Of a stretch of DNA of 64,000 nt, positions 21,350 to 52,296 are shown piece after piece. The translations under genes were made by a program, and so were the position numbers. The first letter of the stretch is position 1; every line of letters begins with the position of its first letter. The notes beneath the pieces were generated by a model, which saw only the letters and a program-made list of their open reading frames with translations, ran no database searches and was not told where the DNA came from. Source of the DNA: Patescibacteria group bacterium (lineage in GTDB: Bacteria > Acidobacteriota > Polarisedimenticolia > Gp22-AA2); NCBI GenBank assembly GCA_035638115.1, contig DASRAN010000007.1:5215-69214 (forward strand), read 5' to 3'.

Positions 21350-22261
21350 TCAGACCGGATTCTTCAGGTTGATGATGCTGCTGACGTCGAAATTCCTCAG
21401 GAAGTCCTTGATCACCGGAAGGTGAGGGAAGAACTCCTGCAGCCGGTCGAAGTAATGGTCGCTCTTCGCCTCGTCTCCCTTCAGGAGGTGGATTTCCCCG
21501 AGGAGGTAATAGCAGTTCTTCTGAATGTCCTTGTAGTCCTGCTGGATGGCGAGCGTCAGCGCCTGCTCGCCGTGATCGCCGGCTAAGACCAGCTCCTTCG
21601 TCTGCATGTAGGCGAAACTGAGATCCTGGTGGCTCTCGCTCACGCAGCGAACGTTGTCGTTCTTCTCGGCGATTGCAAGCGCCTGATGAATGATGGTGAT
21701 GCCGCGCCGGTACTTTTTCTTGAGGAGCAGGCAGTACCCGAGATTCTCGGTGATCGTATCGATCGGCCAGGACGCTTTCCGCTCCCCGCGCTTGCCCAGC
21801 GCGAGAGCGACCCGGAACTCGGCGACCGCGTCGTCGAGGTAGCTCTTGTTCATGTAGATGTTGCCGATGAGGTTGTGGCAGGAGGCTTTCCACGCCGGGT
21901 TGTCGATCGCCTCGCAGGCGTTGAGGGCGCGCTTCGCGTACATCAGCGCCCGATCGAGCCGGCCCTGGCGTCTCAGGGCGCTGGCGATGTTGAACGATGT
22001 ACGGAAGACGATCTGGGGCTCGCGGGTCCGGAGGAGGATCTGCCTCAACCCGCGCTCGGCTTCCTTGATGTCACCCGCCGCCAGCCGGGCGGTGCTGAGG
22101 TTGCAGAGAGCCTTGACCAGGAGTGCCTGGTCGGCCATCTCCTCGGCGAGGGCGATGGCCCGCTCGAAATTATCGATGGCCCTTCGGAAGTCGCCCCTCC
22201 GGACGAATTGCTCGCCCGCCTCGGTGAGGTCCAAAAAACTGGCCTGAGTCTCGGCGTCCAT
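21350..22261 (-). CDS. Tetratricopeptide repeat protein
   Basis: Multiple TPR-like helical pairs (NLSTA, NIASA, NLIGNIY, NLGYC, DLSFAY, LLGEIH); GGGAG RBS. Confidence 0.85.
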   Translation of the reverse strand: MDAETQASFLDLTEAGEQFVRRGDFRRAIDNFERAIALAEEMADQALLVKALCNLSTARLAAGDIKEAERGLRQILLRTREPQIVFRTSFNIASALRRQGRLDRALMYAKRALNACEAIDNPAWKASCHNLIGNIYMNKSYLDDAVAEFRVALALGKRGERKASWPIDTITENLGYCLLLKKKYRRGITIIHQALAIAEKNDNVRCVSESHQDLSFAYMQTKELVLAGDHGEQALTLAIQQDYKDIQKNCYYLLGEIHLLKGDEAKSDHYFDRLQEFFPHLPVIKDFLRNFDVSSIINLKNPV

Positions 22262-22273
22262 CGGGAGCGGCCC

Positions 22274-22642
22274 TCAGTTCCCCTTGCGGTTGCCGATCTT
22301 GTCTTCGAACTGGAGCTTGAATTGGACGTACTCGAGGACCTCTTCCTGCGCCCTGGGGCTGAGCCGGTGGAACTGGCGCAGGATCTCAGCGTCGCGTTCC
22401 TTCAGCGCGCCGGGGACCTCCTCGTGGAAGAATTCGGCGATGTTCATTTCGAACACAGAGAGGATACGGAACAGTGTTTCCAGGCTGACCTTGTACTCGC
22501 CGTTCTCCATTCGGCACAGATCGGACTGCTGGATGCCAATGCGAGCGGCGAGATCGGCCTGGGTCAGATCGCGGTCCTTCCGGAGTGCGCGGATTCTGGA
22601 CCCGACGAGGAGGGATTGCTTCTTGAATTTAGCTGTCAGCAT
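22274..22642 (-). CDS. Xre/Cro-family helix-turn-helix transcriptional regulator
   Basis: RIRALRKDRDLTQADLAARIGIQQSDLCRMENGEYKVSLETL. Confidence 0.92.
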   Translation of the reverse strand: MLTAKFKKQSLLVGSRIRALRKDRDLTQADLAARIGIQQSDLCRMENGEYKVSLETLFRILSVFEMNIAEFFHEEVPGALKERDAEILRQFHRLSPRAQEEVLEYVQFKLQFEDKIGNRKGN

Positions 22643-22720
22643 ATGATTTCCAGAGGTTGATTGCCTCGAAATTGCTTGCAGGACAAGGAGTTCAGCCCGA
22701 TGCGAGCGCAGCAATAATAC

Positions 22721-22749
22721 TTGACACCGTTGCCGCCGGAACATATACT
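22721..22749 (+). promoter_or_regulatory. Near-consensus sigma70 promoter facing the sigma factor gene
   Basis: TTGACA-N17-TATACT, about 300 nt upstream of the ATG at 23050. Confidence 0.7.
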
Positions 22750-23049
22750 GCTGTTGTCAGCTCGCACACAGAACCCAGCTTGCCGTGTCAAGAGATCGAT
22801 GGACGAGGCCAGAGGCAGCGCGATCACCGGCTCCCATCCTGTTCTCCGAGACATTGGATGGCGCCCTCCCTTGTGCTGCCCGGATTTGGAATCCGAAAGG
22901 CCTTACCCCTCGACCCCTCGGTTACGAGCTCTGGAGCCTCAAAAGCTCCATAAATTTGACGGAAATGTATTGCGATAATGAAATAAAGTCAAGCAAAAAG
23001 AAGGCGTCCCCGACCGGGTCAACCTGGCGGGGAAGGAGGTCCTAGACAG

Positions 23050-23967
23050 ATGGCGAAGGGCTCGACCGACCGCAATTCCTGTGTCTCACGCTATCTCCAC
23101 GAGATCAGCGAATTCCCCCTCCTGACCAAGGAGGAAGAGCACGCGATCGCACGTCGGATGGGTCAGGAAGGTTCAGGGGATCCGACCTACCACGATTTGG
23201 TCAAATCGAACCTCAGTTTCGTCGTCAAGATTGCCAGCGAGTACAGGAACATGGGACTCCCGTTCGAGGATCTGCTCAACGAGGGGAACATCGGACTGAT
23301 CGAGGCGGCTCATCACTTCGATCCCACCCGCGGGACCAAGTTCATCACCTACGCCATCTGGTGGATCCGGAAATCGATCCTGAAAGCGTTGTCGCAGCAC
23401 GCGGCCATGGTCCGCATCCCGAACTACCAGCTCAAGAAGGTCCGCAACGTCCGCAACACGGGACGGATGCTCTCCAAGGAGCTGGGGCGCGAGGCCGACC
23501 GCGAGGAGATCTCCAAGGAGCTGCGCGTCACCATCGCGAAGATCGACGAGATCCTGCAGATGAAGATGCGGGAGCTGTCGCTCGACGACAAGGTCGGCCG
23601 CGATCGCGACACGCCGATTTCCGATTACCTGGTGGACGGTCGCTCGGTGAACCCCGAGGACGAGCTCATCAAGCACGAGAACCAGGGTCTCATCCGCCTG
23701 GCCCTCAGGAATCTGAGCGACCAGGAGCAGACCGTGATCATCAACCGCTTCGGGCTCGAGGGCGGGCGGATCTTCACGCTCAAGGAAATCGGCGAGAAGC
23801 TCGGCGTATCGCGCGAACGGGTGCGGCAGATCGAAAGCCAGGCCAAGAAGCGCCTCAAGAAGGTGATCGGCCGCCAGCAGCGCACCGACGCTTCGGCTCC
23901 AAAGGCCGGTCGCCGGCGCAAGGTCTCGTTGCCGCGCGTCGACCCGGTCCACGACGTCAGCCACTGA
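23050..23967 (+). CDS. RpoD/RpoS-like sigma70-family factor lacking region 1.1
   Basis: YLHEISEFPLLTKEEE, SNLSFVVKIA, DLLNEGNIGLIEAA, FITYAIWWIR, TLKEIGEKLGVSRERVRQIE; GGAGG RBS. Confidence 0.93.
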   Translation: MAKGSTDRNSCVSRYLHEISEFPLLTKEEEHAIARRMGQEGSGDPTYHDLVKSNLSFVVKIASEYRNMGLPFEDLLNEGNIGLIEAAHHFDPTRGTKFITYAIWWIRKSILKALSQHAAMVRIPNYQLKKVRNVRNTGRMLSKELGREADREEISKELRVTIAKIDEILQMKMRELSLDDKVGRDRDTPISDYLVDGRSVNPEDELIKHENQGLIRLALRNLSDQEQTVIINRFGLEGGRIFTLKEIGEKLGVSRERVRQIESQAKKRLKKVIGRQQRTDASAPKAGRRRKVSLPRVDPVHDVSH

Positions 23968-28622: not shown

Positions 28623-29957
<1,335 letters not shown>

Positions 29958-38073: not shown

Positions 38074-39056
38074 ATGGCCTCCATGCACTGTCCTGGATGC
38101 TCCCGGCCCCTTCCCGAAGCAGCGTCGCGATGCCCGCACTGCGGCGCGATCGCGCGCGCGGCCTCGGGCGCGGCCCGAAGCGCGGCCTCGAGCGCGGCCC
38201 CGAGCCCGCCGCCGGGCGCGCGTCGACCGCTGAGCGATCTGCCGACCGCCGACCTCCCCGGGGCCGAGGCGCCCGGCGCCTCGCCGTCGTCCGGGCGGAG
38301 GGATCCTCTGGCCCTCGCTCCAGGGAGCCTGTTCGCCGAACGCTTCCTGATCGTCGAGAAGATCGGCGAAGGCGGGATGGGCGAGGTCTACAAAGCGATC
38401 GACACGCGCCTCGACGGCCCGGTCGCGCTGAAGATGATCCGGCCGGCCACGGCGCGGCACGCCGGCAGCGTCGATCGATTCAAGGACGAGGTGCGGATCG
38501 CGCGCCAGATCAGCCACCCGTCGGTGAGCCGCGTGCACGACCTGGGCGAGATCGACGGGCAGGTCTACCTGTCGATGGAGTGGATCCAGGGGGAGACGCT
38601 GCGGCAACTTCTGCGGCGCGCCGGGTCGCTCGAGGCCGACCGGGCGATTCAGATCGCGGCCGAGATCGCCGGGGCGCTCGAGGCCGCGCACCAGCACGGC
38701 GTCGTCCACCGCGACCTGAAGCCCGAGAACGTCATGATCGACGAGCGCGGCGAAGTGCATGTCATGGATTTCGGCATCGCCGTGCTGGAGGAGGCGCAGG
38801 GCCGGACGGCGGCGCCCGGGCCGCTTGGGACTCCCGGCTACATGGCGCCGGGGCCGCCGAGCTGGCGCCCCAGGACGCCTCGGTCGCGTTCGCCAACGCC
38901 GCCGTCCGCTGCCTGCTCGGCCGCAACGACGAGGCTCTCGACCTGCTGGAGAAGGCGGTACGGCTGGGCGTCACGCGCGACGACATCGAGAACGACCCCG
39001 ACAGACCCCTGCACCCCCTGCCGCGCTACCGCCGCATCGTCGAGCTGGCGGGGTAG
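38074..39056 (+). pseudogene. Zinc-ribbon Ser/Thr kinase-TPR gene with internal deletion and frameshift
   Basis: CxxC-CxxC, GEGGMGEVYKA, VALK, HRDLKPEN, DFG and GTPGYMAP, then an abrupt switch at ~38850 to another frame encoding a TPR C-terminus (AELAPQDASVAFANAAVRCLLGRNDEALDLLEKA...NDPD). Confidence 0.75.
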
Positions 39057-39086
39057 CTAACGGGGTCACTAATAATGATGGGGGTC

Positions 39087-39455
39087 CTAGGGCCGGATCG
39101 GGACGATTTCGGGGTCGATCGAGGCGATTTCCCCGTCCTCGTCGTCGAACGTCTTGATGGTGTACTTGTCACGGATACCCGAGACCTGGCCCCTGCCGAC
39201 GGCGGGGAAGGAGCGACCCTGGGGGGCGCGGCCGTAGATGGTGTCCGCGTGGCACAGCGTCCGGCTGAAGGACCGCGACGGCTTACCCGCCACCAGAAAG
39301 TAGTCGGCCTCGTCGAAGACGACCGAGACCTTGGCGACCTCTTCGTGGTGATTCCTGAAGTGCCAGTGGACGAACTCTGTCTCCACCACCGGCTGGAAGT
39401 CGTTGACGACCTCGATCGACCCATCCGGCTGCAAGATGACTTCGATGTCCGCCAC
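39087..39455 (-). CDS. Small beta-rich hypothetical protein with C-terminal IDPEIV
   Basis: GTG start with GGGGAGG RBS; 122 aa; own sigma70-like promoter. Confidence 0.7.
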   Translation of the reverse strand: MADIEVILQPDGSIEVVNDFQPVVETEFVHWHFRNHHEEVAKVSVVFDEADYFLVAGKPSRSFSRTLCHADTIYGRAPQGRSFPAVGRGQVSGIRDKYTIKTFDDEDGEIASIDPEIVPIRP

Positions 39456-39628: not shown

Positions 39629-42600
39629 CTACGCCGCCTTCCCGAAGTCGGTTGGGATAGCGAACGACCTAATACGACGGTAAAGCTTCTGGCGATTCCA
39701 TCCGATAAATCTGGCAGCCTTCGTCTTGTCCCCTCGAAACCGGCGCAGGGCATCTTCGATCATGATCTGCTCGCCCGTCTTTTGAGCATTAACACGACCT
39801 CGTACATCGCGGACACCACCGATCGAATCCAAGCCCTCGTGTGAACCTATGACTTCCGGCCTGGAGCAGACAAGACCTGGGCGACCTGAGTCCGCAGACC
39901 CTGCAAGTGAAGGAAGTGTGTCAGGAAGGTCAGCGATAGTAATGACCTCGCGCGGATTCACAACCATAAGGCTCTCTATTAGGTGTTCAAGCTCACGCAC
40001 ATTGCCAGGCCAGGAGTACGAAAGTAGAGCCTCAAGGACACCAGGACCAAGCTCTCGCGGAGGCGTGTTTGCGTGAGCTTGTCGACTTAGAAACTCCGCG
40101 ACCAAAAGCGGAATGTCTTCCCTTCGCTCACGAAGTGTTGGCGCAACGATCCCGATGACGTTCAAGCGATAAAACAGGTCTTGTCGAAATCGTCCCTGAG
40201 CTATGAGCGAAGAGAGGTCTGCGTTGGTGGCAGCGATAACCCTAACATTAACCCGACGCGTTTGGTTCTCTCCCAACCGGCGAATCTCACGCTCTTGCAG
40301 AACACGCAGAAGCCGTGACTGCAAGTTGATCGATGTATTCGCGATCTCGTCAAGAAAAAGCGTCCCACCGCTTGCCTCTTCAAGCAACCCTACGCGATCG
40401 CGGTCCGCCCCGGTGAAGGCGCCACGTCGGCATCCGAACAACTCGACCTCAAGTAGGCCCTCTGGAAGGGCGCCACAATCAACAGTCAAAAACGGACCCT
40501 GGCGACGCGCACCATTCGCGTGTATTGCTCGGGCAATAAGCCCCTTGCCAGTCCCGCTTTCTCCGGTGATGAGAATTGTACTGTTCAAGTCGAGTACACC
40601 TGCGATAGTCTCATGCAACCGACGCATAACAACGCTTGTTCCTATAAGTTCCGGGAACCGACTTGCGGCCTGACGTCTGAGTCGAGAATTCTCTTCACGC
40701 ATTTGGCCGAACACACGAGCGTTCGCAATTGCGATTGCAGCTTGACTTGCGAACGATTCAACAAAGGTCCGGTCCTTGTCCGTGAACTTCTGAGCATTGC
40801 TCCGAGTATCGAGGTAGATGACCCCCAGTACCTCATCTCGAGACTTCATGGGGACGCACAAAATAGACCTAATCTCCCGAACGATGATGCTGTGCACCGA
40901 TGCAAGCGAGGGATCCTGACCCACGTCAGTCGAGAAAACGATGAGCCCTTGTTCTGCGCGGCGCAGTACAGATCGACTAAACGTTGTCAAGTCCTCCAGG
41001 TCTGTGTTCCCTATTCCTCTTGCGCAGGAGACGCGCATCTGTCCGTCCGTAGAGGACTTCAGAAACATGATTCCTCGTTCTGCCCGAATGCTGTCAATCG
41101 CTAGGTCAAGTATCCGGCCGAGTAGTGCATCTAGGTCGCGAGTAGAAGCGAGCTTCTGTCCGATCTCGCTCAGAGCAGCCAGCATTTTCCGGGAAATCAT
41201 CTCGCTTCGACGCAACGTAGCGGTGTTGAACCGTGAGCGACGTCCGTATTCACGCGCTAGTTCACGATAGTGAGCGAGTACCAGGGAGACGTGAGGCGTG
41301 GAGAGAAACGAGCGTCGGAATCGAGAATCACTTATGTCTTGCGAGACCTCCCGAAGAACGTTGGTGGCCCTACGCAGATACCATAAAGCACGAGACAACG
41401 ACAGTGTGCGCTCATGCAGTGTTGCTAGCAACGCAAGAGATTGCCAGGTAACATCGCGATTACGTGTCTCGTGAGCAATGGAGAGGGCATCCAGAGCGCA
41501 CGCGATAGCGTCACGTGGTTGTCCGACCGAAAGCAGCAGTGATGCTCTTATGAGGAGGCACTCTGAGTGAACTGATCTCAGCCCAACGCGCTGCGCCAAG
41601 CGTTGCACACGCGCTAGCTGGGCCATGTGTTGGGGCAAATCTACGCCCATTTCCACAGATAACAACGTGAGCGTAGTCTCAGCCTGGATCCAAATGTCAT
41701 ATGGTGCCGGCGCACGATAGGTCGAAATGGCCGTCTTGAGTCGTTCGATAGCCTCGGAGGAAAGACCGAGTCCGGATTCGTTGATGGCATGTAAGCGGTG
41801 TAGTTCAAGAAGGGACTGGTGGAATCGCATTTCGAGTGCAAGGCGAATTGCCTTTGTAATTACTCGCTTGGCCAAGGTATAGGCCCCAACAGCTACGAGC
41901 GAGTATGCCCATGTGGTCAGGTAAAGAATAGTTAGCGAAGGTATATTGTGAAGTTCGGTTCTCGCTCCGAGGCGTGAGAGGAGGGAGAGAGCAGATCCGG
42001 GGTAGCCCCCACGAACGAGGACCTGGGCCTGATTAAGATGGGCTATGAGTGCGTGGTGCTGGTCGCCCGAACGGCGAAACTCGGCAGCAGCAATGGCATT
42101 AAGTCGAATAGCAGGCTTCAATGCGCCCTGTGCTCGAAACGTCTCGCCTGCATTTACAAAGACGGTCCAACGGAGGTGGGCGAGTGATAACTCTCGGCTC
42201 AACGACCGTGCTGTTCGATACTGATCTCGGGCAGCGCTGTACCTACCAACATCAGATAGCAGGATTCCCGTATTTAGTACGGCCGTTGCGAATGCTTGCC
42301 AATTGCCAGACTGTTTAAGGAGGCGAGCTCGCCGCTGCTCGTATTTCAAGGCAAGCCTATATGTTCCTTCTCTCCAGTGGGCAGAGGCGATGGCACGTAG
42401 GGCATCTACGGCATATGACAACTCGTGTGTTCGCCGAGCAGCGGCAAGGGATCTGAACAGTACACGTCGACCACGATCCCTGCGTTCCAACCAACAGAGC
42501 CCGTCTCCTATGATCGCAAGAGCTTGCACGGCCCGCCCACTGTAGCCATTTATTCTACAGAGTCGGAGGGCCCTGCGCGCCTGTAGGATGCCTAAGGCGT

Positions 42601-44755
42601 AGTTGGATAATGCCAGCTCGCAGTATGCTCGGGAAATAAGAAGAGAGACCTGCGTATCGGGCGGAACGTCATCGCTAATCGCCACCCGAGTGAGTACGTC
42701 GCGACACTCGTGATAGCGCCCAGACTTGAACAGTGCAACAGCCAGTAACGCGGACAGTTGGGCCGAGTCAGAAGTCCCGTGTGCACTTGATGCTAGGGCA
42801 TTATGAAGGGGAGATATGGCGTGATGATAGTTGCCATGCTCCACAAAGGCGCGTCCCGCAAGACCATAACAACGGACAGATGATCCGTGGTTCCCAGCAG
42901 CGGCATGATGGTGACCAGCATATCCAAGATCGTGAGGGGTAGTTGCCCGAGCCTCGTAGAAGTCTGCAAGTCGTTGATGGAGGATTGCATGATGCGCAGT
43001 GTCCGGAGAATCGTTTAGGGACACGCGAAGGGAGTTGCTAGGCACGGAAAAGCAGTCGGGGTGATCGTCGTCGCTGGGTGTTACAAGAGCAAGCATAACT
43101 AGCCTGGAGATAACACCCTGGATGTCGTCATCTGAACGTCCCAGAAGAAGTGCGATGGTATGCGATGTCAAGGGAGCCGTAGAGATGCCTACAAGCCGTA
43201 ACACGTCAGTGTCCGAGGACGGTAGACTGTCGAGCAGAGGACCAGAAACGGTTCGGGCTATCTCCTTCTGAAGTCCAGAGCGGAGATGCGGTGAGTAACT
43301 GAGTACCCCCTGCTCGTAGGAAACTATTCCCCGAACTGAGTACTCACTCAGTAGAGCATCATTTATGAATGGGTGTCCACCAGAGTCAGTGTCAAGGTCG
43401 GAGACTAGATTGCTAGGTGCAACTGGGATACCTAGAGATTCTGCAACAGATGTGGCTAGCGTGTGTCGTGGAGAGCGGCCTATCGCGAGCATGTCGGGAA
43501 GTGCATGAGCAGCTAGTGAGTTGGAACGGTGCTCTCGCATCAGGCAGGTGATGGGAGGGCAGACCAAGATAATGGCAGTTGGAGGAAAGTGTGAGTTGCG
43601 AAGGCGAGCGATAAAGGGATGAGCGCGCTCGTATTCAGAATGAGGCAAGTTTAGCGAGAGGATCCATGGTCTCCAGGCCATTGCCTCGGGTGAGCGAGCG
43701 AGCAGGGCGAGGTCCTTCAAGGAATGTGTAATGCGAATTGCATAACCATTGCGGAAAAGGCGCAATAAGAGATATCGGGCGAGAGCCTCCAAGGTTGGTG
43801 AGGGGATCGCGTAGAAATAGAAAAGTAGTGGACGAATGACCGACTCAGTGCTGGACTTAACTATTGACTCGCAGATCCGTTGTACTTCCGGCTCGAAGTG
43901 CGTTAGGGAAGGTGATACATGCTTCGTCCCGGAGGTCGTACAGTGTCGCACTGTGTCGCTCGTTGACAAAGTCTTTAGCTTTTCGGAAACGTCGAGCGCG
44001 GAGAGCGGCCTATCGGCCGGGTTTGGTGAGAGGAGGGTGGAACAAAGTGAGCGAACCGCTCGTTCGAAGTGCTGTTCGCCAAGTGAGCTACTGTCGCGAT
44101 TATCGCTGTGCACGCCACGTTGTCCCAACAAGCACTCGGAAATGATCTTGCCGAGAGAATAGAGATCGGATGTGTAGGTGGTCCGTCCCTCGTTCATAGT
44201 TTCGGGGGCAGCATAATGCGGCGTAAACACTATAGCGTCTCGTAGAGTGCTCTCTACGTGCCTATGAGACGCTCCGAAGTCAATGACCTTAGGGATTGCA
44301 GGCGTGAGGGTAGAAGAATTCTGGGGGAGCAGGATGTGGGCGCTTTTTAAGTCTCCGTGGATGAACCCGCGGCGATGGAAGTAATCTAGGAAGCCACAGA
44401 CATTTGCTAGTTGCAGGAGAAGTAGATCGCGGGATGCGGTGCAGGCGAATGCTGCGATGTCGACGCCACGTATATGTTCGAGTACGAGGAAAGGCATTCT
44501 TGCGTGAGTTGTGTGACCAAAGTCCAGCAGTCTCGGAACGAATGGGTGATCGTTGAAGACGGTCAGAACCTCGATCTCTGCGCTGAACTGTCGTAATGCG
44601 GTGAGGGATCGATAGGAGTCAGTAGATGTATTGTATCGCTTGATAATGCGTGCTGTTCCGTCGACCGAACGAATGGCTTCCAAGATCGAACTGGACGACC
44701 CCTCTGCGAGGTTGGAAACAATATCGTAACCAGGGAATTCTGGAAGCTGATTCAT
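39629..44755 (-). CDS. Low-GC giant sigma54 EBP: diverged Ser/Thr kinase - degenerate NTPase - TPR - GAF - AAA+ - HTH
   Basis: 1708-aa open frame; HGDLKSAH/DFG/APE kinase remnants, TPR-like repeats, GAF (SILCVPM...GVIYLD), GESGTGKG, GAFTGA, WPGNVRELEH, GDKTKAARFIGWNRQKLYRR. Confidence 0.9.
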   Translation of the reverse strand: MNQLPEFPGYDIVSNLAEGSSSSILEAIRSVDGTARIIKRYNTSTDSYRSLTALRQFSAEIEVLTVFNDHPFVPRLLDFGHTTHARMPFLVLEHIRGVDIAAFACTASRDLLLLQLANVCGFLDYFHRRGFIHGDLKSAHILLPQNSSTLTPAIPKVIDFGASHRHVESTLRDAIVFTPHYAAPETMNEGRTTYTSDLYSLGKIISECLLGQRGVHSDNRDSSSLGEQHFERAVRSLCSTLLSPNPADRPLSALDVSEKLKTLSTSDTVRHCTTSGTKHVSPSLTHFEPEVQRICESIVKSSTESVIRPLLFYFYAIPSPTLEALARYLLLRLFRNGYAIRITHSLKDLALLARSPEAMAWRPWILSLNLPHSEYERAHPFIARLRNSHFPPTAIILVCPPITCLMREHRSNSLAAHALPDMLAIGRSPRHTLATSVAESLGIPVAPSNLVSDLDTDSGGHPFINDALLSEYSVRGIVSYEQGVLSYSPHLRSGLQKEIARTVSGPLLDSLPSSDTDVLRLVGISTAPLTSHTIALLLGRSDDDIQGVISRLVMLALVTPSDDDHPDCFSVPSNSLRVSLNDSPDTAHHAILHQRLADFYEARATTPHDLGYAGHHHAAAGNHGSSVRCYGLAGRAFVEHGNYHHAISPLHNALASSAHGTSDSAQLSALLAVALFKSGRYHECRDVLTRVAISDDVPPDTQVSLLISRAYCELALSNYALGILQARRALRLCRINGYSGRAVQALAIIGDGLCWLERRDRGRRVLFRSLAAARRTHELSYAVDALRAIASAHWREGTYRLALKYEQRRARLLKQSGNWQAFATAVLNTGILLSDVGRYSAARDQYRTARSLSRELSLAHLRWTVFVNAGETFRAQGALKPAIRLNAIAAAEFRRSGDQHHALIAHLNQAQVLVRGGYPGSALSLLSRLGARTELHNIPSLTILYLTTWAYSLVAVGAYTLAKRVITKAIRLALEMRFHQSLLELHRLHAINESGLGLSSEAIERLKTAISTYRAPAPYDIWIQAETTLTLLSVEMGVDLPQHMAQLARVQRLAQRVGLRSVHSECLLIRASLLLSVGQPRDAIACALDALSIAHETRNRDVTWQSLALLATLHERTLSLSRALWYLRRATNVLREVSQDISDSRFRRSFLSTPHVSLVLAHYRELAREYGRRSRFNTATLRRSEMISRKMLAALSEIGQKLASTRDLDALLGRILDLAIDSIRAERGIMFLKSSTDGQMRVSCARGIGNTDLEDLTTFSRSVLRRAEQGLIVFSTDVGQDPSLASVHSIIVREIRSILCVPMKSRDEVLGVIYLDTRSNAQKFTDKDRTFVESFASQAAIAIANARVFGQMREENSRLRRQAASRFPELIGTSVVMRRLHETIAGVLDLNSTILITGESGTGKGLIARAIHANGARRQGPFLTVDCGALPEGLLEVELFGCRRGAFTGADRDRVGLLEEASGGTLFLDEIANTSINLQSRLLRVLQEREIRRLGENQTRRVNVRVIAATNADLSSLIAQGRFRQDLFYRLNVIGIVAPTLRERREDIPLLVAEFLSRQAHANTPPRELGPGVLEALLSYSWPGNVRELEHLIESLMVVNPREVITIADLPDTLPSLAGSADSGRPGLVCSRPEVIGSHEGLDSIGGVRDVRGRVNAQKTGEQIMIEDALRRFRGDKTKAARFIGWNRQKLYRRIRSFAIPTDFGKAA

Positions 44756-44764
44756 CAGGACTCG

Positions 44765-44792
44765 AATGTAGAGTTTGTGCGAGTCCGGTCAA
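44765..44792 (-). promoter_or_regulatory. Sigma70-like promoter for the low-GC EBP
   Basis: TTGACC-N16-TACATT, 9 nt before the ATG, no obvious RBS. Confidence 0.45.
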
Positions 44793-44822
44793 GAAAAGGA
44801 AAGGGGGCCCGTTAGGGCCCCC
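44793..44822 (-). terminator. Intrinsic terminator after the peptide gene
   Basis: GGGGGCCC-TAAC-GGGCCCCC followed by TTTCCTTTT. Confidence 0.8.
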
Positions 44823-44849
44823 GAAATTAATCCGTATCACTTTCTTTTG

Positions 44850-45122
44850 TTAGCAGCCGCCCAGGCCACATCGACCGCCGCCACCCCAGGTTGCAGTGTC
44901 AGCAGAAACCGTTCCACCAGTCGAGCGCGGGGACACCGTAGTGCCGCCCTGGACCGGGGCGCTGGAACCGAAGCCCAGGAACTGCATGAGGACCTGGAGG
45001 AAGCCGAAGTGCGTTCCAGTCGCGACCGGGTTCGAGTGGGGGGCGGCGATTGCAGCCGTCGGACCGAACGCCACCACCGCGAGAATCATCAGCACCGCTG
45101 CACTCTTCAGCATCTTGCTCAT
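44850..45122 (-). CDS. 90-aa secreted peptide precursor (signal peptide; C-terminal TATWGGGGRCGLGGC)
   Basis: AGGGGAGG RBS; Sec-type signal with AIA cleavage motif; dedicated sigma54 promoter and terminator. Confidence 0.8.
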   Translation of the reverse strand: MSKMLKSAAVLMILAVVAFGPTAAIAAPHSNPVATGTHFGFLQVLMQFLGFGSSAPVQGGTTVSPRSTGGTVSADTATWGGGGRCGLGGC

Positions 45123-45187
45123 CGCCCTACCTCCCCTTTTGGCTTCTCAGCCCGGTTATCATTTCGTCGTACTCGGGCGACCCTTAG

Positions 45188-45204
45188 AGCAACGACGATG
45201 CCAA
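45188..45204 (-). promoter_or_regulatory. Sigma54 (-24/-12) promoter of the peptide gene
   Basis: Minus strand TTGGCATCGTCGTTGCT matches TGGCAC-N5-TTGCW with correct GG-N10-GC spacing. Confidence 0.82.
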
Positions 45205-45213
45205 ATTCGTGAC

Positions 45214-45469
45214 TGTCTCGTGCCGCGTCGCGTATCCATAAGAAATGGCGTGAGATGTTGTCTTACGAAACTGTACCGAAAGGTACGGTACACCCTGCCC
45301 GGAACACGATTTAGTAAGTAGTTCACCCTAGGGACTTCTATCTATCAGCATTTACAGCAAGATACGGATGGTCTCGCGAGACGCCGATGAGACTGTTCAG
45401 TTATCGCTGTTATCGGGCTGTGTTTGCTTGAGATACGGCATTGGTCGTCTCAGGTCTTTGAAGTGAGAC
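45214..45469. promoter_or_regulatory. Candidate enhancer sites (TGAGA[C/T] / GTCTC[A/G] repeats) in an AT-richer intergenic region
   Basis: TGAGAT-gtt-GTCTTA 45251-45265; GTCTC-GC-GAGAC 45371-45382; TGAGAC 45388; TGAGAT 45429-N12-GTCTCA 45447-N11-TGAGAC 45464. Confidence 0.55.
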
Positions 45470-45505
45470 TGCGGGATCGAGCCAAAAGCCGGCCTGTGGG
45501 GGCGC

Positions 45506-50752
<5,247 letters not shown>

Positions 50753-50820
50753 GGCCCCAGCCCTCAAGAACTTGCCGGGAAAGTACTCCGGTTCGCGCCC
50801 CCCCGCAAGGGCATACCCGC

Positions 50821-50884
50821 GGCGGCCTGCAACCGGCGGCGGTCTGCAACCCGCGGTGGCCTGTCCCGCGGCGGCCTGCACCAG
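50821..50884. repeat. Four imperfect 15-17-bp tandem repeats GGCGGCCTGCA(A)CC upstream of the kinase-EBP
   Basis: Units at 50821, 50838, 50855 and 50870. Confidence 0.6.
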
Positions 50885-50901
50885 GACGGGCGGAGCGTCG
50901 G

Positions 50902-52296
50902 CTAGTTGACGGGGATGTCGCGCGGGCCGGGGGAGTGGAACTGGAGGTCGGACTCGGCCGCCCGGCCGCGGCGGGTCAGCTTGCGCTGCCGCATGCGGGC
51001 GTCGGCGATGGCGATCAGGTCCTCGCAGGTGCGGCCGTCGGCGGGGAAGGAGGCCGATCCGAGGGTGACGTCGACGGCGATGGCGGTGTTGCGCGCCACC
51101 GCGAACTTGTGCCGCAGGACGCCCTGCTCGAGCCGGGTCGCGACCGCGTCGATCCGATCGGCCGCCACCCCGGTGAGGATCAGCAGGAACTGATCGCCGG
51201 CGTAGCGCACGCAGGTGTCGCCCGGCCGCATCTGGCCGCGGATGGCGCGCGCCAGGCCGCGCAGCACGCGGTCGCCCGCCTGCCGTCCGTAGCGCTCGTT
51301 GATCTCCCCGAAACCGTCGACGTCCAGCTCGATCAGGCTCAGGGTGGACTTCTGCTGCGCCGCGCGGCGCAGCTCCTGCTCGAAGCTGCTGAACAACTGG
51401 CTCGCCGCCGGCAGCCGCGTCAGCGGGTCGGATGCCGGGGAGGTGGCGTCCGCGCCCGGCGCCGCCGCTGCGCCGTCCTCCTGCGCCCCGTCGAGACGCT
51501 GCGCCGTGGTGATCAGCAGGCGCACCACCTCCGGGTCGCAGGTGGTGCCGGCCTCGTCGCGCAGATCGGCCAGGGCCTGCGAGGGGACGGCCGGCGTCCC
51601 TCCGGCGGGACCGGCCAAAAGCGACTCGTAGCGCTCCACGGCGCCGAGCACGCGCGCGGCGGCGGGGATCGCCTCGCCGCGCAGGCCGTCGGGTCCGCCG
51701 GTGCCGTCGAACTTCTCGTAACGCGAGCGGATGACGCGCGCCAGCGGCGCGGGCAGCCGCGACCGCTCGATCTGCTCCGCGTCGAGACCACGCAGCAGGA
51801 CGGCGGCGCGCACGACCGCGACGTCGGCGGGCGGCAGGCCGATCGCCATCGCGACTTCGGTGGCCATCGACTGGACCCGTCGCACGCGCCGCGCGGCCGC
51901 GTCGTTGACCGGATCGGCCGCGAACACCAGCGCGCCGATGATCGACTGGCTGGTCTCGACGATCTCGTCCCGGTGCCGGAGGCTCGATTGCGACGTCGAT
52001 CGGTCCTGCCGCAGCGTCAGCAGCAGGACGATGCCCGCGGTCAGCGCGCTCGCGGCGAGCGCGACACCCGCGGTGCTCAGCGTGAGCGGCGGCCATTCGG
52101 GACGATGGGGGAGCAGCAGGACGACCGCCGGCAGCAGGAACCCCGCGGCGACGGTCAGGGCGATCATCAGGCGGATGCTGCGGCTCAAGGTCGCGATCGC
52201 CTCCACGATGGCGGTGCGAGGGCGCCCCTCATCCCCCCGGCCGGAGCGCGCCCCGCACCCACCCAGAAGATCGGGCGCGGCGGGCGGCCGGTCCAT
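50902..52296 (-). CDS. Membrane-anchored degenerate HD-GYP + GGDEF protein
   Basis: Two TM helices; SRYEKFDGTGGPDGLRGEAIP (degenerate HD-GYP); DPLTRL, LDVDGFGEINERYG, RPGD I-site, AGDQF; start uncertain. Confidence 0.8.
   Translation of the reverse strand: MDRPPAAPDLLGGCGARSGRGDEGRPRTAIVEAIATLSRSIRLMIALTVAAGFLLPAVVLLLPHRPEWPPLTLSTAGVALAASALTAGIVLLLTLRQDRSTSQSSLRHRDEIVETSQSIIGALVFAADPVNDAAARRVRRVQSMATEVAMAIGLPPADVAVVRAAVLLRGLDAEQIERSRLPAPLARVIRSRYEKFDGTGGPDGLRGEAIPAAARVLGAVERYESLLAGPAGGTPAVPSQALADLRDEAGTTCDPEVVRLLITTAQRLDGAQEDGAAAAPGADATSPASDPLTRLPAASQLFSSFEQELRRAAQQKSTLSLIELDVDGFGEINERYGRQAGDRVLRGLARAIRGQMRPGDTCVRYAGDQFLLILTGVAADRIDAVATRLEQGVLRHKFAVARNTAIAVDVTLGSASFPADGRTCEDLIAIADARMRQRKLTRRGRAAESDLQFHSPGPRDIPVN

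What the first reader, a model, noticed from the sequence alone, without database searches (positions are those of the whole stretch)
39629..44755. Low-GC, strongly diverged paralogue of the adjacent EBP with eroded kinase and NTPase but intact sigma54 output
Seen: GC counts of 26/60 (43321-43380) and 29/60 (41641-41700) versus 44/60 in EBP1 (46201-46260), yet a 1708-codon frame stays open. The kinase glycine loop (AEGSSSS) and catalytic loop (HGDLKSAH) are altered, and no Walker A is recognisable where EBP1 has GPPGSGKS, whereas GESGTGK, GAFTGA and the HTH are conserved. No integrase, transposase or flanking att repeat was seen. Inference: a horizontally swapped or rapidly diversifying sensor allele, a specificity cassette with the peptide gene, as in pherotype-variable quorum loci.
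Basis: partly seen in the sequence, partly recalled or inferred. Interest (0 to 1): 0.65.

Follow-up and report, generated by a model that had tools for sequence, protein, structure and literature searches.

The report
Hypervariable low-GC sigma-54 activator gene
A giant regulator gene and the small secreted-peptide gene in front of it form a native 6-kb block that changes many times faster than its neighbours and has stayed AT-shifted in a 70% GC soil bacterium and its relatives, which fits a signal-and-receptor specificity cassette rather than foreign DNA or an assembly error.

Summary
EBP2 (39629-44755, minus strand, 1708 codons) lies in the lowest-GC 5 kb of the genome: GC 0.54 and GC3 0.54, against 0.93 in its neighbours. 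It has no internal stop, where 63 would be expected by chance. Its kinase glycine loop, catalytic-loop Asn and STAND Walker A/B motifs are lost, while the sigma-54 AAA+ module and HTH are intact.

It is neither a chimera nor a recent import. An independent single-run assembly reproduces both GC junctions. Thirteen genomes in 10 genera of the family carry a syntenic orthologue that is also GC3-depressed. The EBP1, EBP2 and EBP3 trees agree with one another.

The peptide gene plus EBP2 form an island of divergence with sharp edges. Where flanking proteins are 96% identical, EBP2 is 54-57% identical (sensor half 48%). dS is at least 4 times higher than in the flanks, and dN/dS is about 0.19. Two near-identical strains show no excess divergence, which argues against hypermutation. 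Composition is near equilibrium.

My best reading is an ancient, vertically inherited paralogue of EBP1 whose non-catalytic sensor half diversifies together with the peptide. "Horizontally swapped" is not supported. The receptor role and the cause of the low GC are inferred, not shown.

The parts
39629..44755 (-). EBP2 coding sequence, 1708 aa: kinase-like domain, degenerate STAND NTPase, TPR, GAF, sigma-54 AAA+ and Fis-type HTH. GC 0.543, GC3 0.536.
   Evidence: There are no internal stops against 63 expected. The identical protein is found on two other assemblies.
43970..44728 (-). Kinase-like domain (residues about 10-262). The G-loop reads LAEGSSSS and the catalytic loop HGDLKSAH (Asn replaced by His). 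Lys39, Glu60, Asp135, Asp159 and APE are kept.
   Evidence: Pfam Pkinase E 1.4e-25. Alignments. AF2 pLDDT 83, with Foldseek kinase hits of TMt about 0.7. The same derived motifs occur in all four alleles of the window's genus-level clade.
43001..43903 (-). Degenerate STAND NTPase module (nucleotide-binding, helical and winged-helix domains; residues about 285-585). Walker A is replaced by AIPSPTLE and Walker B by ILSLNL.
   Evidence: Alignment A6. No AAA_16 hit. AF2 pLDDT 85. Top Foldseek hits are 6mfv STAND-TPR, Apaf-1, CED-4, MalT, plant NLRs and Avs5. A PDB profile search hits P-loop, winged-helix and TPR segments.
41276..43000 (-). TPR / MalT-like helical-repeat sensor region (residues about 586-1160). 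Together with the NTPase part it is the fastest-evolving stretch of the protein.
   Evidence: Weak TPR_12, TPR_19 and TPR_MalT hits. AF2 helices. Mean pairwise identity is 0.22-0.36 per 100 columns.
40724..41143 (-). GAF domain (residues 1205-1344).
   Evidence: Pfam GAF_2, GAF and GAF_3. Many columns are invariant across the nine orthologues.
39908..40648 (-). Sigma-54 interaction AAA+ domain and lid (residues 1370-1616). GESGTGK, GAFTGA and the Walker B FLDE are intact.
   Evidence: Pfam Sigma54_activat E 5.9e-65 and AAA_lid_14. Invariant columns.
39668..39772 (-). Fis-type HTH (HTH_8). Its recognition region is nearly identical to that of EBP3 and unlike that of EBP1.
44765..44792 (-). Sigma-70-like promoter TTGACC-N16-TACATT. 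It ends 9 nt before the EBP2 ATG, which predicts a leaderless or nearly leaderless mRNA.
   Evidence: The TTGACC and TAnnnT elements are conserved at the same place in eight genomes of five genera. The leaderless reading is an inference.
44793..44822 (-). Intrinsic-terminator-like hairpin (8 G-C pairs followed by a T-run) between the peptide gene and EBP2.
   Evidence: An equivalent GC hairpin plus T-run is present in all eight genomes examined.
44850..45122 (-). 90-aa secreted-peptide precursor gene: signal peptide followed by an A(T/I)WGG-Cys-loop tail. It belongs to the same low-GC, hyperdivergent block.
   Evidence: Gene callers of two other assemblies also call it.
45189..45203 (-). Sigma-54 promoter element TGGCATCGTCGTTGC upstream of the peptide gene.
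   Evidence: It is the only match in the 64-kb window (0.09 expected). The same element sits upstream of the peptide gene in four other genera. rpoN is present in the genome.
39629..45750 (.). Island of divergence and low GC. Nucleotide identity to the closest relatives falls from 0.90-0.94 to 0.4-0.65 within the last ~250 nt of EBP1. It returns to 0.92 immediately after the EBP2 stop codon.
   Evidence: (sliding identity of the window against L108 and L109).
45506..50752 (-). EBP1, the full-length paralogue with intact kinase and STAND motifs and normal composition (GC3 0.925).
28623..29957 (-). EBP3, a 444-aa activator without a recognisable sensor. It shares EBP2's HTH. It lies directly downstream of EBP2 in other genera but is about 9.7 kb away here.

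Best explanation
EBP2 is a native, vertically inherited, ancient tandem paralogue of EBP1. Both have the same architecture: Hanks-type kinase domain, STAND NTPase, TPR, GAF, sigma-54 AAA+ and HTH.

The block and its behaviour (shown). EBP2 and the sigma-54-driven secreted-peptide gene just upstream form a ~6-kb block. The block is kept at one chromosomal position across the family. It diverges far faster than its flanks at both silent and replacement sites, fastest in the sensor half. It sits at its own compositional equilibrium of GC3 about 0.55, in a genome where GC3 is about 0.93.

The protein in the window's genus-level clade (shown for motifs and predicted folds, inferred for function). 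The kinase G-loop, the catalytic-loop Asn and the STAND Walker A and B motifs were lost once and have stayed lost, while the folds are retained. I therefore infer that the N-terminal 1150 residues act as a non-catalytic sensor or scaffold.

Proposed mechanism (inferred).
- EBP2 is made at a low level from its own sigma-70-type promoter. The mRNA looks leaderless, and a quarter of its codons are codons that are rare in this genome.
- A signal sensed by the TPR / pseudo-STAND / GAF part releases the intact AAA+ module.
- The released module binds enhancers through an HTH shared with EBP3 and fires the sigma-54 promoter of the peptide gene.
- Peptide and sensor diversify together as a specificity pair, as in pherotype loci.

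The low GC (inferred). It reflects the absence, in this one block, of whatever force drives GC3 up elsewhere in the genome. Candidates are weak codon selection because expression is rare, and little effective homologous recombination between highly diverged alleles. AT-biased mutation then sets the composition. It does not reflect foreign origin.
For: Not an artefact:
- A Logan contig from the single run SRR6184671 and an ENA contig are 100% identical to the window across both GC junctions.

Native and old:
- A syntenic orthologue is present in 13 genomes of 10 genera.
- EBP1, EBP2 and EBP3 are each monophyletic (SH-aLRT 99-100) with congruent internal topology.
- EBP1 and EBP2 profiles align over 1626 columns.
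- No closer N-terminal homologue exists outside the clade.

Conserved GC3 depression:
- The sensor half has GC3 0.53-0.77, against 0.83-0.94 for EBP1 of the same genomes.
- Along the gene, GC3 tracks conservation (Spearman 0.67, p 0.002).
- Polarised third-position changes run 156 from G/C to A/T against 130 the other way, which is near equilibrium.

Island of divergence:
- Window against L108, L109 and L113: ABC ATPase 96-97% amino-acid identity, permease 90-94%, EBP1 86-92%, peptide 58-78%, EBP2 54-57% (N-terminal part 48%, C-terminal part 70%).
- L108 against L109: flank dS 0.14-0.15; EBP2 dS 0.62, dN 0.118, omega 0.19.
- The edges fall at the EBP1 3' end and at the EBP2 stop codon.

No hypermutation:
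- L113 against L114: EBP2 dS 0.018, flanks 0.038. About 23 silent differences are observed, where about 197 would be expected at a 4-fold rate.

Selection keeps the gene:
- There are no internal stops against 63 expected.
- Length is 1697-1714 aa in all complete orthologues.
- AF2 pLDDT is 83-85, with kinase and STAND folds recovered.
- The derived motif losses are shared by four alleles that are only about 47% identical to the window's in the N-terminal 700 residues.

Regulatory layout, conserved across genera:
- Sigma-54 promoter, peptide gene, terminator, sigma-70-like promoter, EBP2.
- rpoN is present.
- EBP2 and EBP3 share their HTH.

Rare codons:
- 25% of EBP2 codons are codons used at less than 2 per 1000 in the flanks.
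Against:
- Peptide binding by EBP2 is pure inference. The peptide carries a Sec-type signal peptide while EBP2 shows no membrane or periplasmic part in the predicted model. A re-import step would be needed, and the adjacent ABC transporter is of the NitT/TauT type, not an oligopeptide permease.
- The best-conserved part of the peptide is the A(I/T)WGG motif itself. Only the short Cys loop behind it varies.
- No discordance between EBP2 alleles and flanks was seen, and no coexisting allele classes within one species. With 5-7 alleles, a steadily fast clock confined to the block cannot be fully separated from deep allelic lineages.
- omega is about 0.19 with no window above 0.33, so positive selection is not demonstrated.
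- NG86 dS is unreliable near saturation. Part of the dS excess is expected simply because silent sites at GC3 0.55 are less constrained than at 0.93. My own estimate of this effect is about 2.5-fold.
- The cause of the low GC is not tested. Other hypervariable loci noted in this scan are GC-rich in AT-rich genomes, so 'escape to mutational equilibrium' is not a general rule.
Confidence: 0.6

Rival explanations
1. Recent horizontal acquisition or allele swap from a lower-GC donor: the block is foreign DNA that has not yet ameliorated.
For: There is a sharp GC drop of 16 points, codon usage unlike the host, and boundaries that coincide with gene ends.
Against: - Orthologues sit at the same site in 10 genera and are also GC3-depressed.
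- The gene trees are congruent with those of EBP1 and EBP3.
- Outside the family the best N-terminal hits are 26-33% identical, and they are generic kinases or EBP1-like proteins.
- There is no integrase, tRNA gene or direct repeat.
- Substitution flux is near compositional equilibrium rather than ameliorating towards GC.
Confidence: 0.04
2. MAG or assembly chimera: a low-GC fragment of another organism was joined into a high-GC contig.
For: The genome is a 73%-complete MAG in 98 contigs. Seven of 13 orthologues in relatives are cut by contig ends.
Against: - Both junctions are reproduced base for base in a Logan assembly of a single run and in an ENA contig.
- The same low-GC gene lies between the same high-GC neighbours on contigs of 226 kb and 830 kb from other samples.
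- The junctions fall inside a conserved gene order.
Confidence: 0.01
3. Relaxed selection: the sensor half has lost its function along with its catalytic motifs and is decaying towards AT-rich pseudogene composition. Only the GAF-AAA+-HTH part matters.
For: - The G-loop, the catalytic Asn and Walker A/B are lost.
- dN is 10-30 times that of the flanks, and omega is higher than in the flanks (0.19 against 0.02-0.10).
- One orthologue (G003) has an in-frame TAG exactly at the border to the GAF module.
- AT drift is what decay would give.
Against: - The frame is open in every complete orthologue (1697-1714 aa) and has no internal stop against 63 expected.
- omega stays at 0.09-0.33 in all 150-codon windows.
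- The folds are predicted with high confidence.
- The derived 'dead' motifs are themselves conserved among alleles that are about 47% identical.
- The fast rate and low GC3 are also seen in genera that keep GxxGxGK[ST] and HGDLKPxN.
Confidence: 0.12
4. A locally raised, AT-biased mutation rate explains both the divergence and the low GC. Possible sources are transcription-linked or repair-deficient mutagenesis of this block.
For: dS as well as dN is raised, by at least 4-fold. The composition shift also affects the intergenic part and, in other genera, the adjacent EBP3 (GC3 0.68-0.82 when adjacent, 0.89-0.94 when moved away).
Against: The closest pair, L113 and L114, shows EBP2 dS 0.018 against 0.038 in the flanks. 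That is about 23 silent differences where about 197 would be expected at a 4-fold rate. No diversity-generating element, repeat template or reverse transcriptase is seen nearby.
Confidence: 0.1
5. An arms-race sensor rather than a signal receptor: the STAND-TPR part recognises a phage or competitor protein, as in Avs-type defence proteins, and evolves fast for that reason. The link with the peptide would be regulatory only.
For: The fold search returns STAND sensors including Avs5 and NLRs. STAND-TPR sensors of defence systems are known to evolve fast (my own knowledge).
Against: - PADLOC gives only generic kinase and sigma-54 AAA+ hits and no STAND defence model.
- The output is a transcription activator, not an effector.
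- The tight, family-wide linkage to a sigma-54-driven secreted-peptide gene and to EBP1 and EBP3 is not a defence-island context.
Confidence: 0.08

Closest known systems
Pherotype (specificity-group) quorum-sensing loci of Bacillota: agrBDCA of Staphylococcus, comQXPA of Bacillus subtilis, comCDE of Streptococcus
   Same: - A signal-peptide gene lies next to its presumed receptor.
- A hypervariable block has sharp borders between conserved flanks.
- The sensor part varies much more than the output part.
- For comparison, comQ clusters are only 65-70% identical at the nucleotide level in strains whose gyrA genes are about 100% identical (PMC4408185). Here flanking proteins are 96% identical against 54-57% for EBP2.
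   Different: - The organism is an Acidobacteriota-like bacterium.
- The presumed receptor is a cytoplasmic 1708-aa sigma-54 activator, not a membrane histidine kinase.
- No processing, modification or export gene lies in the block.
- Coexisting discrete allele classes, cross-inhibition and any peptide-receptor contact are all untested.
- The block also carries a 40-point GC3 deficit that persists across genera.
RRNPP-type cytoplasmic TPR peptide receptors (Rap-Phr, PlcR-PapR, NprR-NprX)
   Same: A cytoplasmic TPR-containing regulator is encoded beside a secreted pro-peptide gene. Specificity diversification of such pairs is well documented (PMC5199041, listed).
   Different: - No sequence membership was found.
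- The TPR region here belongs to a STAND module fused to a kinase-like domain, GAF and a sigma-54 AAA+ activator.
- No Opp-type importer is seen nearby.
STAND regulators with TPR sensors: MalT/LAL family, M. tuberculosis PknK-type kinase-STAND-TPR proteins, TOMM kinase/cyclase fusion (TIGR03903)
   Same: The domain order is kinase, then P-loop STAND NTPase, then winged helix, then TPR. The fold search returns 6mfv, MalT and Apaf-1/CED-4. EBP1 hits AAA_16, and its kinase domain hits TIGR03903.
   Different: The output is GAF plus a sigma-54 AAA+ and Fis HTH, rather than LuxR HTH or a cyclase. In the window's clade Walker A and B are gone, so the nucleotide switch that defines STAND signalling cannot work in the usual way.
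GAF-regulated sigma-54 enhancer-binding proteins (NifA, NorR, FhlA)
   Same: The arrangement GAF, AAA+ with GAFTGA, and Fis-type HTH is the same. The best NCBIfam hit is NifA, though below its cut-off. In NorR the GAF domain represses the AAA+ domain until a signal arrives (PMC2941729, listed).
   Different: There is an extra 1150-residue N-terminal kinase-like/STAND/TPR region, and the protein reaches no equivalog cut-off.
Replacement-type hypervariable loci with atypical composition in otherwise homogeneous genomes (for example the Pseudomonas aeruginosa pyoverdine, O-antigen and pilin regions; my own knowledge)
   Same: A syntenic locus with conserved flanks shows extreme divergence and codon usage unlike the rest of the genome.
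   Different: Those loci encode surface or secreted functions and are usually explained by exchange between species. Here the gene is an intracellular regulator, its trees are congruent with vertical descent, and the compositional state is near equilibrium.

Membership tests
[quoted passage not shown] | Sigma54_activat AAA+ domain with Walker A GxxGxGK and Walker B hhhhDE | tested here: met
   PF00158 E 5.9e-65. GESGTGK at residue 1398 and LFLDE are present and invariant in the nine orthologues.
[quoted passage not shown] | GAFTGA loop that contacts sigma-54 | tested here: met
   GAFTGA at residue 1445, invariant across orthologues.
[quoted passage not shown] | C-terminal Fis-type HTH, with a sigma-54 promoter and rpoN available | tested here: met
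   HTH_8 E 7.8e-10. TGGCAT-N5-TTGC at 45189-45203. rpoN on contig C93. Binding and activation were not tested.
[quoted passage not shown] | Membership of a named equivalog (NifA, NtrC, NorR and others) | tested here: not met
   All NCBIfam hits are below their curated cut-offs. The best is NifA at 330 bits against a cut-off of 529.
Catalytically competent Hanks-type Ser/Thr kinase | Glycine-rich loop GxGxxG | tested here: not met
   The loop reads LAEGSSSS in the window and LAESSVCT or LAEGTLCT in the sister alleles.
Catalytically competent Hanks-type Ser/Thr kinase | Catalytic loop HRDxKxxN, with the Asp and the Mg-binding Asn | tested here: not met
   The loop reads HGDLKSAH. The Asp is kept, Arg is replaced by Gly, and Asn by His, in all four alleles of the clade. 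Other genera have HGDLKPxN.
Catalytically competent Hanks-type Ser/Thr kinase | VAIK Lys, alpha-C Glu, DFG Asp, APE and the kinase fold | tested here: met
   K39, E60, D159 and A183-P184-E185 are invariant. The AF2 model matches kinase structures, for example PknB with TMt 0.76.
STAND P-loop NTPase (AAA_16 / NB-ARC / MalT type) | Walker A GxxxxGK[ST] and Walker B acidic residues | tested here: not met
   The window has AIPSPTLE and ILSLNL where orthologues in other genera have G(x)4GK[ST] and hhhhDD (one, G020, has GAGRT). EBP1 has GPPGSGKS.
STAND P-loop NTPase (AAA_16 / NB-ARC / MalT type) | Pfam or profile hit to a STAND NTPase family | tested here: not met
   No AAA_16 or nSTAND hit in the window's protein. 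Only sub-threshold hits occur in the G022 orthologue.
STAND P-loop NTPase (AAA_16 / NB-ARC / MalT type) | Fold: nucleotide-binding domain, helical domain, winged helix, then a repeat sensor | tested here: met
   The AF2 model of residues 280-700 has pLDDT 85. Foldseek hits are 6mfv (E 6.5e-9), Apaf-1, CED-4, MalT, NLRs and Avs5. It is homologous to EBP1's AAA_16 region by hhalign.
Pherotype-type polymorphic peptide-signalling cassette | Signal-peptide gene adjacent to the receptor, both inside one hypervariable block between conserved flanks | tested here: met
Pherotype-type polymorphic peptide-signalling cassette | Sensor part more variable than output part | tested here: met
   N-terminal part 26-48% identical against 57-82% for the C-terminal part. 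EBP1 over the same genome pairs gives 43-63% against 60-84%.
Pherotype-type polymorphic peptide-signalling cassette | Discrete allele classes coexisting in one species, discordant with the genome phylogeny | tested here: inconclusive
   Only 5 full and 3 partial alleles of the clade were found, and their order agrees with the flanks. The excess dS is absent in the closest pair and 4-fold or more in the others, which fits deep alleles but does not prove them.
Pherotype-type polymorphic peptide-signalling cassette | Allele-specific activation by the cognate peptide, and a dedicated processing or export gene | not testable with these tools
   No processing or export gene lies in the block. Activity needs experiments.
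Horizontally acquired genomic island | Absent from relatives at that site, with integrase, tRNA or direct-repeat borders and a donor-like homologue elsewhere | tested here: not met

The most novel reading that the evidence does not exclude
The peptide-EBP2 block is a pherotype-like specificity cassette of a kind not yet described. In it, a cytoplasmic pseudokinase / pseudo-STAND / TPR sigma-54 activator would be the allele-specific receptor of an exported and re-imported A(I/T)WGG-type peptide, in Acidobacteriota.

Its long-lived, mutually non-recombining alleles have escaped the force that drives this genome to GC3 0.93. The block would therefore display the genome's bare mutational equilibrium (GC3 about 0.55). 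That makes it a natural experiment on why GC-rich bacteria are GC-rich.
Probability: 0.22. Interest if true: 0.8.

Novelty: new variant of a known kind. Interest (0 to 1): 0.62.

Why it matters
There are three reasons.

- It gives a concrete, testable candidate for peptide-based, allele-specific cell-cell signalling in Acidobacteriota, a dominant but poorly understood soil phylum. The receptor class, a sigma-54 activator with a kinase-like/STAND/TPR sensor, has not to my knowledge been characterised.
- It shows a pseudoenzyme transition inside a bacterial regulator. Kinase and STAND motifs were lost once and then held, with the folds retained. A fully equipped paralogue lies next door, and orthologues with intact motifs exist for comparison.
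- A native gene has stayed 40 GC3 points below its genome across at least 10 genera and is near compositional equilibrium. This bears directly on the open debate over whether selection or recombination-linked processes keep bacterial genomes GC-rich (PMC11879095). EBP3 has intermediate GC3 when adjacent to EBP2 and normal GC3 when moved away, which points to a regional cause rather than a gene-specific one.

On the practical side, a genome-trained gene caller truncated the orthologue to its last 517 codons. Such genes are therefore under-annotated in public data.

Tried and rejected
- The genome-contig scan with the full EBP2 alignment chose generic patterns (WPGNVREL) and returned unrelated sigma-54 activators. 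It was of no use beyond one short contig.
- The metagenome-contig scan with the N-terminal alignment found no relatives.
- PADLOC gave only generic domain hits, so I dropped the defence-system reading as the main explanation.
- Foldseek on the 1-700 model was swamped by kinases. I re-modelled residues 280-700 to see the STAND fold.
- I first read the JGI gene calls as showing that L113 and L114 carry only a 517-aa remnant. Translation showed a fully open 1707-aa frame, so that idea was rejected.
- dN/dS between the window and its relatives is unusable because dS is saturated.
- Rare-tRNA gating: tRNAs for AGA and CTA are present. A tRNA-Leu(UAA) was not found, but the MAG is only 73% complete, so this is inconclusive.
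- The Ansaldi and Dubnau 2004 paper on comQXP could not be read.
- Literature searches found no paper describing this domain architecture.

Full report
**Observation**

The window is G000:C7:5215-69214 of a MAG of 3.25 Mb in 98 contigs, 73% complete and 70.3% GC.

- From about 39.6 to 45.3 kb, GC falls to 0.52-0.57 between flanks of 0.69-0.77.
- This is the lowest of 2819 five-kb windows of the genome (0.542; mean 0.703, sd 0.022). It is also the longest of only 20 stretches below 60% GC.
- The minus-strand frame 39629-44755 encodes 1708 residues with no internal stop. Shuffles give 63 +/- 8 stops, and the other five frames have 58-86.
- The deficit is mainly at silent sites. GC1/GC2/GC3 are 0.62/0.48/0.54 in EBP2 and 0.76/0.51/0.93 in EBP1.
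- 25% of EBP2 codons are codons used at less than 2 per 1000 in the neighbouring genes, where they make up 1.7%.

**What the protein is**

Pfam finds Pkinase (10-250), weak TPR, GAF (1205-1344), Sigma54_activat (1370-1536), AAA_lid_14 and HTH_8. It finds no AAA_16, which EBP1 has. Profile-profile comparison of nine EBP2 orthologues with five EBP1 orthologues gives probability 100 over 1626 columns. The two are therefore full-length paralogues, but old ones: 37% identity over the C-terminal 625 residues and 33% in the kinase.

- Kinase. EBP2 keeps Lys39, Glu60, Asp135 (as HGD), Asp159 and APE. It has LAEGSSSS in place of GxGxxG and HGDLKSAH in place of HxDxKxxN.
- STAND module. Where EBP1 reads GPPGSGKS and orthologues in other genera read G(x)4GK[ST], EBP2 reads AIPSPTLE. 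Walker B (hhhhDD) is ILSLNL.
- Folds. They persist. AF2 of residues 1-700 has pLDDT 83 and matches kinases. AF2 of residues 280-700 has pLDDT 85. Its best Foldseek hits are a STAND-TPR protein (6mfv), Apaf-1, CED-4, MalT, plant NLRs and Avs5.
- Output. The sigma-54 module is intact: GESGTGK, GAFTGA, Walker B and the Fis-type HTH. rpoN is present in the genome.

**Not a chimera, not an import**

- The exact protein is encoded on a Logan contig assembled from the single run SRR6184671 and on an ENA contig. Both are 100% identical to the window across both GC junctions.
- No tRNA gene, att-like repeat or recombinase is present.
- Relatives settle the point. The order EBP1, peptide gene, EBP2, EBP3 recurs in other genera of the family.
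- A family-wide search finds an EBP2 orthologue in 13 of 29 genomes, in 10 of 18 genera.
- In a tree of the AAA+-HTH part, EBP1, EBP2 and EBP3 are each monophyletic (SH-aLRT 99-100). Together they are separate from other activators of the genome, and their internal topologies agree.
- A search of 5.8 billion proteins with the sensor half finds only two close relatives (47-48%). Everything else is at most 33% identical.

**The low GC is conserved**

- In every orthologue the gene is GC3-depressed relative to EBP1 of the same genome. The sensor half has GC3 0.53-0.77, against 0.83-0.94 for EBP1.
- In most genera GC3 rises in the conserved GAF-AAA+-HTH part to 0.7-0.9. Along the alignment, GC3 correlates with conservation (Spearman 0.67, p 0.002). 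In the window's own allele it is uniformly low.
- Third-position changes polarised with an outgroup run 156 from G/C to A/T against 130 the other way. The block therefore sits near its own equilibrium rather than ameliorating or still decaying.
- EBP3 has GC3 0.68-0.82 where it lies directly downstream of EBP2. Where it lies 8-10 kb away, as in the window and in L108, its GC3 is 0.89-0.94. This points to a regional effect rather than a gene-specific one.

**An island of divergence**

Closer relatives were reached through the sensor-half search (L108, L109) and through the neighbouring ABC ATPase (L113-L118).

| Comparison | Flanking genes | Peptide | EBP2 |
|---|---|---|---|
| Window vs L108/L109/L113, amino-acid identity | ABC ATPase 96-97%, permease 90-94%, EBP1 86-92% | 58-78% | 54-57% (N-part 48%, C-part 70%) |
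| L108 vs L109 | dS 0.14-0.15, omega 0.02-0.10 | dS 0.26, omega 0.16 | dS 0.62, dN 0.118, omega 0.19 (0.09-0.33 per 150-codon window) |
| L113 vs L114 | dS 0.038 | dS 0.014 | dS 0.018 |

- In sliding windows, nucleotide identity drops from 0.90-0.94 to 0.4-0.65 within the last 250 nt of EBP1. It returns to 0.92 directly after the EBP2 stop codon.
- Between the window and the others, EBP2 dS is saturated while the flanks stay at 0.28-0.43.
- For the near-identical pair L113 and L114, about 23 silent differences are observed where about 197 would be expected at a 4-fold rate. This argues against a constant local hypermutation.
- The pattern is instead consistent with deep allelic lineages, or with flanks that are homogenised by recombination while the block is not.
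- The same fast rate holds at greater depth. Within one other genus, the EBP2 N-part is 38-40% identical against 63% for EBP1.
- Seven of 13 EBP2 orthologues are cut by contig ends, against 1 of 18 EBP1 genes (Fisher p 0.004). This could reflect strain heterogeneity within samples, but it is only suggestive.

**Erosion is old and held**

All four full alleles of the window's clade (W, L108, L109, L113) share the G-loop loss, HGDLKSAH, a 9-residue deletion in the C-lobe, AI[PQH][ST]P in place of Walker A, and [IV]LSL[NCT]L in place of Walker B. These alleles are only about 47% identical to the window's in the N-terminal 700 residues. The losses therefore happened once and have been kept under purifying selection. 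This fits a pseudoenzyme sensor or scaffold rather than a dying gene. One orthologue (G003) has a GAG-to-TAG change exactly before the GAF module. It is either a split or a local defect.

**Regulatory layout**

- Upstream of the 90-aa peptide gene (44850-45122) lies the only TGGCAY-N5-TTGC element of the window (45189-45203; 0.09 expected by chance). The same element precedes the peptide gene in four other genera.
- Between the peptide gene and EBP2 there is a strong GC hairpin with a T-run, followed by TTGACC-N16/17-TAnnnT ending about 9-11 nt before the start codon. Both are conserved in eight genomes.
- I infer that the peptide gene is the sigma-54 target and that EBP2 has its own weak, probably leaderless transcript.
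- EBP2 and EBP3 share the HTH recognition region (GDKTKAARFIGWNRQKLYRR against GDKTRAARFIGWSRPKLYRR). EBP1's differs. EBP2 and EBP3 probably use the same enhancers.

**Interpretation**

What is shown:
- A native, ancient paralogue.
- A hyperdivergent, GC3-poor block with sharp borders that includes the peptide gene.
- Faster change in the sensor half than in the output half.
- Motifs lost while folds and output are kept.

What is inferred:
- The N-terminal half senses a signal, possibly the peptide or something that depends on it.
- Peptide and sensor co-diversify as a specificity pair.
- The low GC results from AT-biased mutation acting where the genome's GC-raising force is weak. Either expression is rare, or recombination between diverged alleles is ineffective. 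Whether recombination raises bacterial GC through biased conversion or through more effective selection is debated (PMC11879095).

Cautions:
- The peptide is exported and EBP2 is cytoplasmic, and no oligopeptide importer is nearby.
- The A(I/T)WGG core of the peptide is conserved. Only the Cys loop behind it varies.
- No allele-flank discordance was seen.
- omega never approaches 1.
- Other agents of this scan report the opposite sign elsewhere: GC-rich hypervariable genes in AT-rich genomes.

**Comparison with known systems**

- The closest functional analogy is to pherotype loci (agr, comQXP, comCDE). Strains whose gyrA genes are nearly identical carry comQ alleles only 65-70% identical (PMC4408185).
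- There is also an analogy to RRNPP receptors.
- The closest structural relatives are STAND-TPR regulators (MalT, PknK-type proteins) and GAF-controlled sigma-54 activators (NifA, NorR).
- EBP2 is a member of the sigma-54 activator class. Its kinase and STAND domains fail the motif tests for catalytic competence. Membership of the pherotype-cassette class is met only for the genomic features.
- Literature searches found no description of this architecture or of this locus.
- The taxon is probably Acidobacteriota: the best named hits of the neighbouring ABC ATPase are Candidatus Polarisedimenticolia at 84%.

**Verdict**

I classify this as a new variant of a known kind, namely a polymorphic signalling or replacement locus. 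Its unusual receptor class and its compositional anomaly, conserved across genera, are worth following up.

Noticed in passing
L113:11405-16528 and L114:11342-16465 (orthologues on JGI contigs of 226 kb and 830 kb): The public gene calls give only the last 517 codons (GAF-AAA+-HTH) of a frame that is open for 1707 codons. The low-GC3 sensor half was not called at all. Genome-trained gene finders seem to miss it.
   Followed up: yes
window 38083-39060 (+), with 39087-39455 (-): The kinase gene that converges on EBP2 is a truncated remnant: 325 aa, with the Pkinase profile matched only to position 166 of 263. The window has a gap of about 1.3 kb relative to L109. Relatives carry versions of 494 to 766 aa with TPRs, and L108 lacks both this gene and the conserved 122-aa ORF. 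The 3' flank of EBP2 is structurally unstable.
   Followed up: partly
L023 (G003:C404), codon 941 of the partial frame: The EBP2 orthologue has an in-frame TAG (GAG in the others) directly before a Met that opens the GAF-AAA+-HTH part. It could be a natural split into sensor and activator, a nonsense mutation or a sequencing error.
   Followed up: partly
window 28623-29957 (-), and L018-L022: EBP3 lies directly downstream of EBP2 in five other genomes, where its GC3 is 0.68-0.82. In the window and in L108 it lies 8-10 kb away, with GC3 0.89-0.94. About 9.7 kb separates EBP2 and EBP3 here, carrying the ABC transporter, DUF4136 and UbiD genes.
   Followed up: partly
family-wide: Seven of 13 EBP2 orthologues are cut by contig ends, usually within the sensor half, against 1 of 18 EBP1 genes of similar length (Fisher p 0.004). 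This may be a sign of strain-level heterogeneity that breaks assemblies.
   Followed up: partly
window 45506-52096 (-): The 2196-codon open frame of EBP1 is over-long. The first ~445 codons are an Arg/Ala-rich read-through typical of high-GC DNA. Orthologues start just before the kinase domain, at about 50752.
   Followed up: partly
G000 C2:102718-108759, C18:20258-23852, C2:62339-65301; window 21964-23934: These are the other stretches of the MAG below 60% GC. I did not examine what they encode (an rRNA operon is possible), nor whether any behaves like the EBP2 block.
   Followed up: no
L019, L020, L021 (between EBP1 and EBP2): The peptide precursors of other genera carry 1 to 8 tandem AIWG(G) units. 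G008 has eight GKDSAIWG repeats. The window's clade has one unit followed by a variable Cys-x4/5-Cys loop: CGLGGC, CGYPGC, CFGPNC or CFGPTC.
   Followed up: partly
L117:1-1532: In one close relative, a 2941-aa RHS/YD-repeat protein gene with low GC (0.50-0.57) and an Xre-type HTH gene lie beyond EBP3.
   Followed up: no
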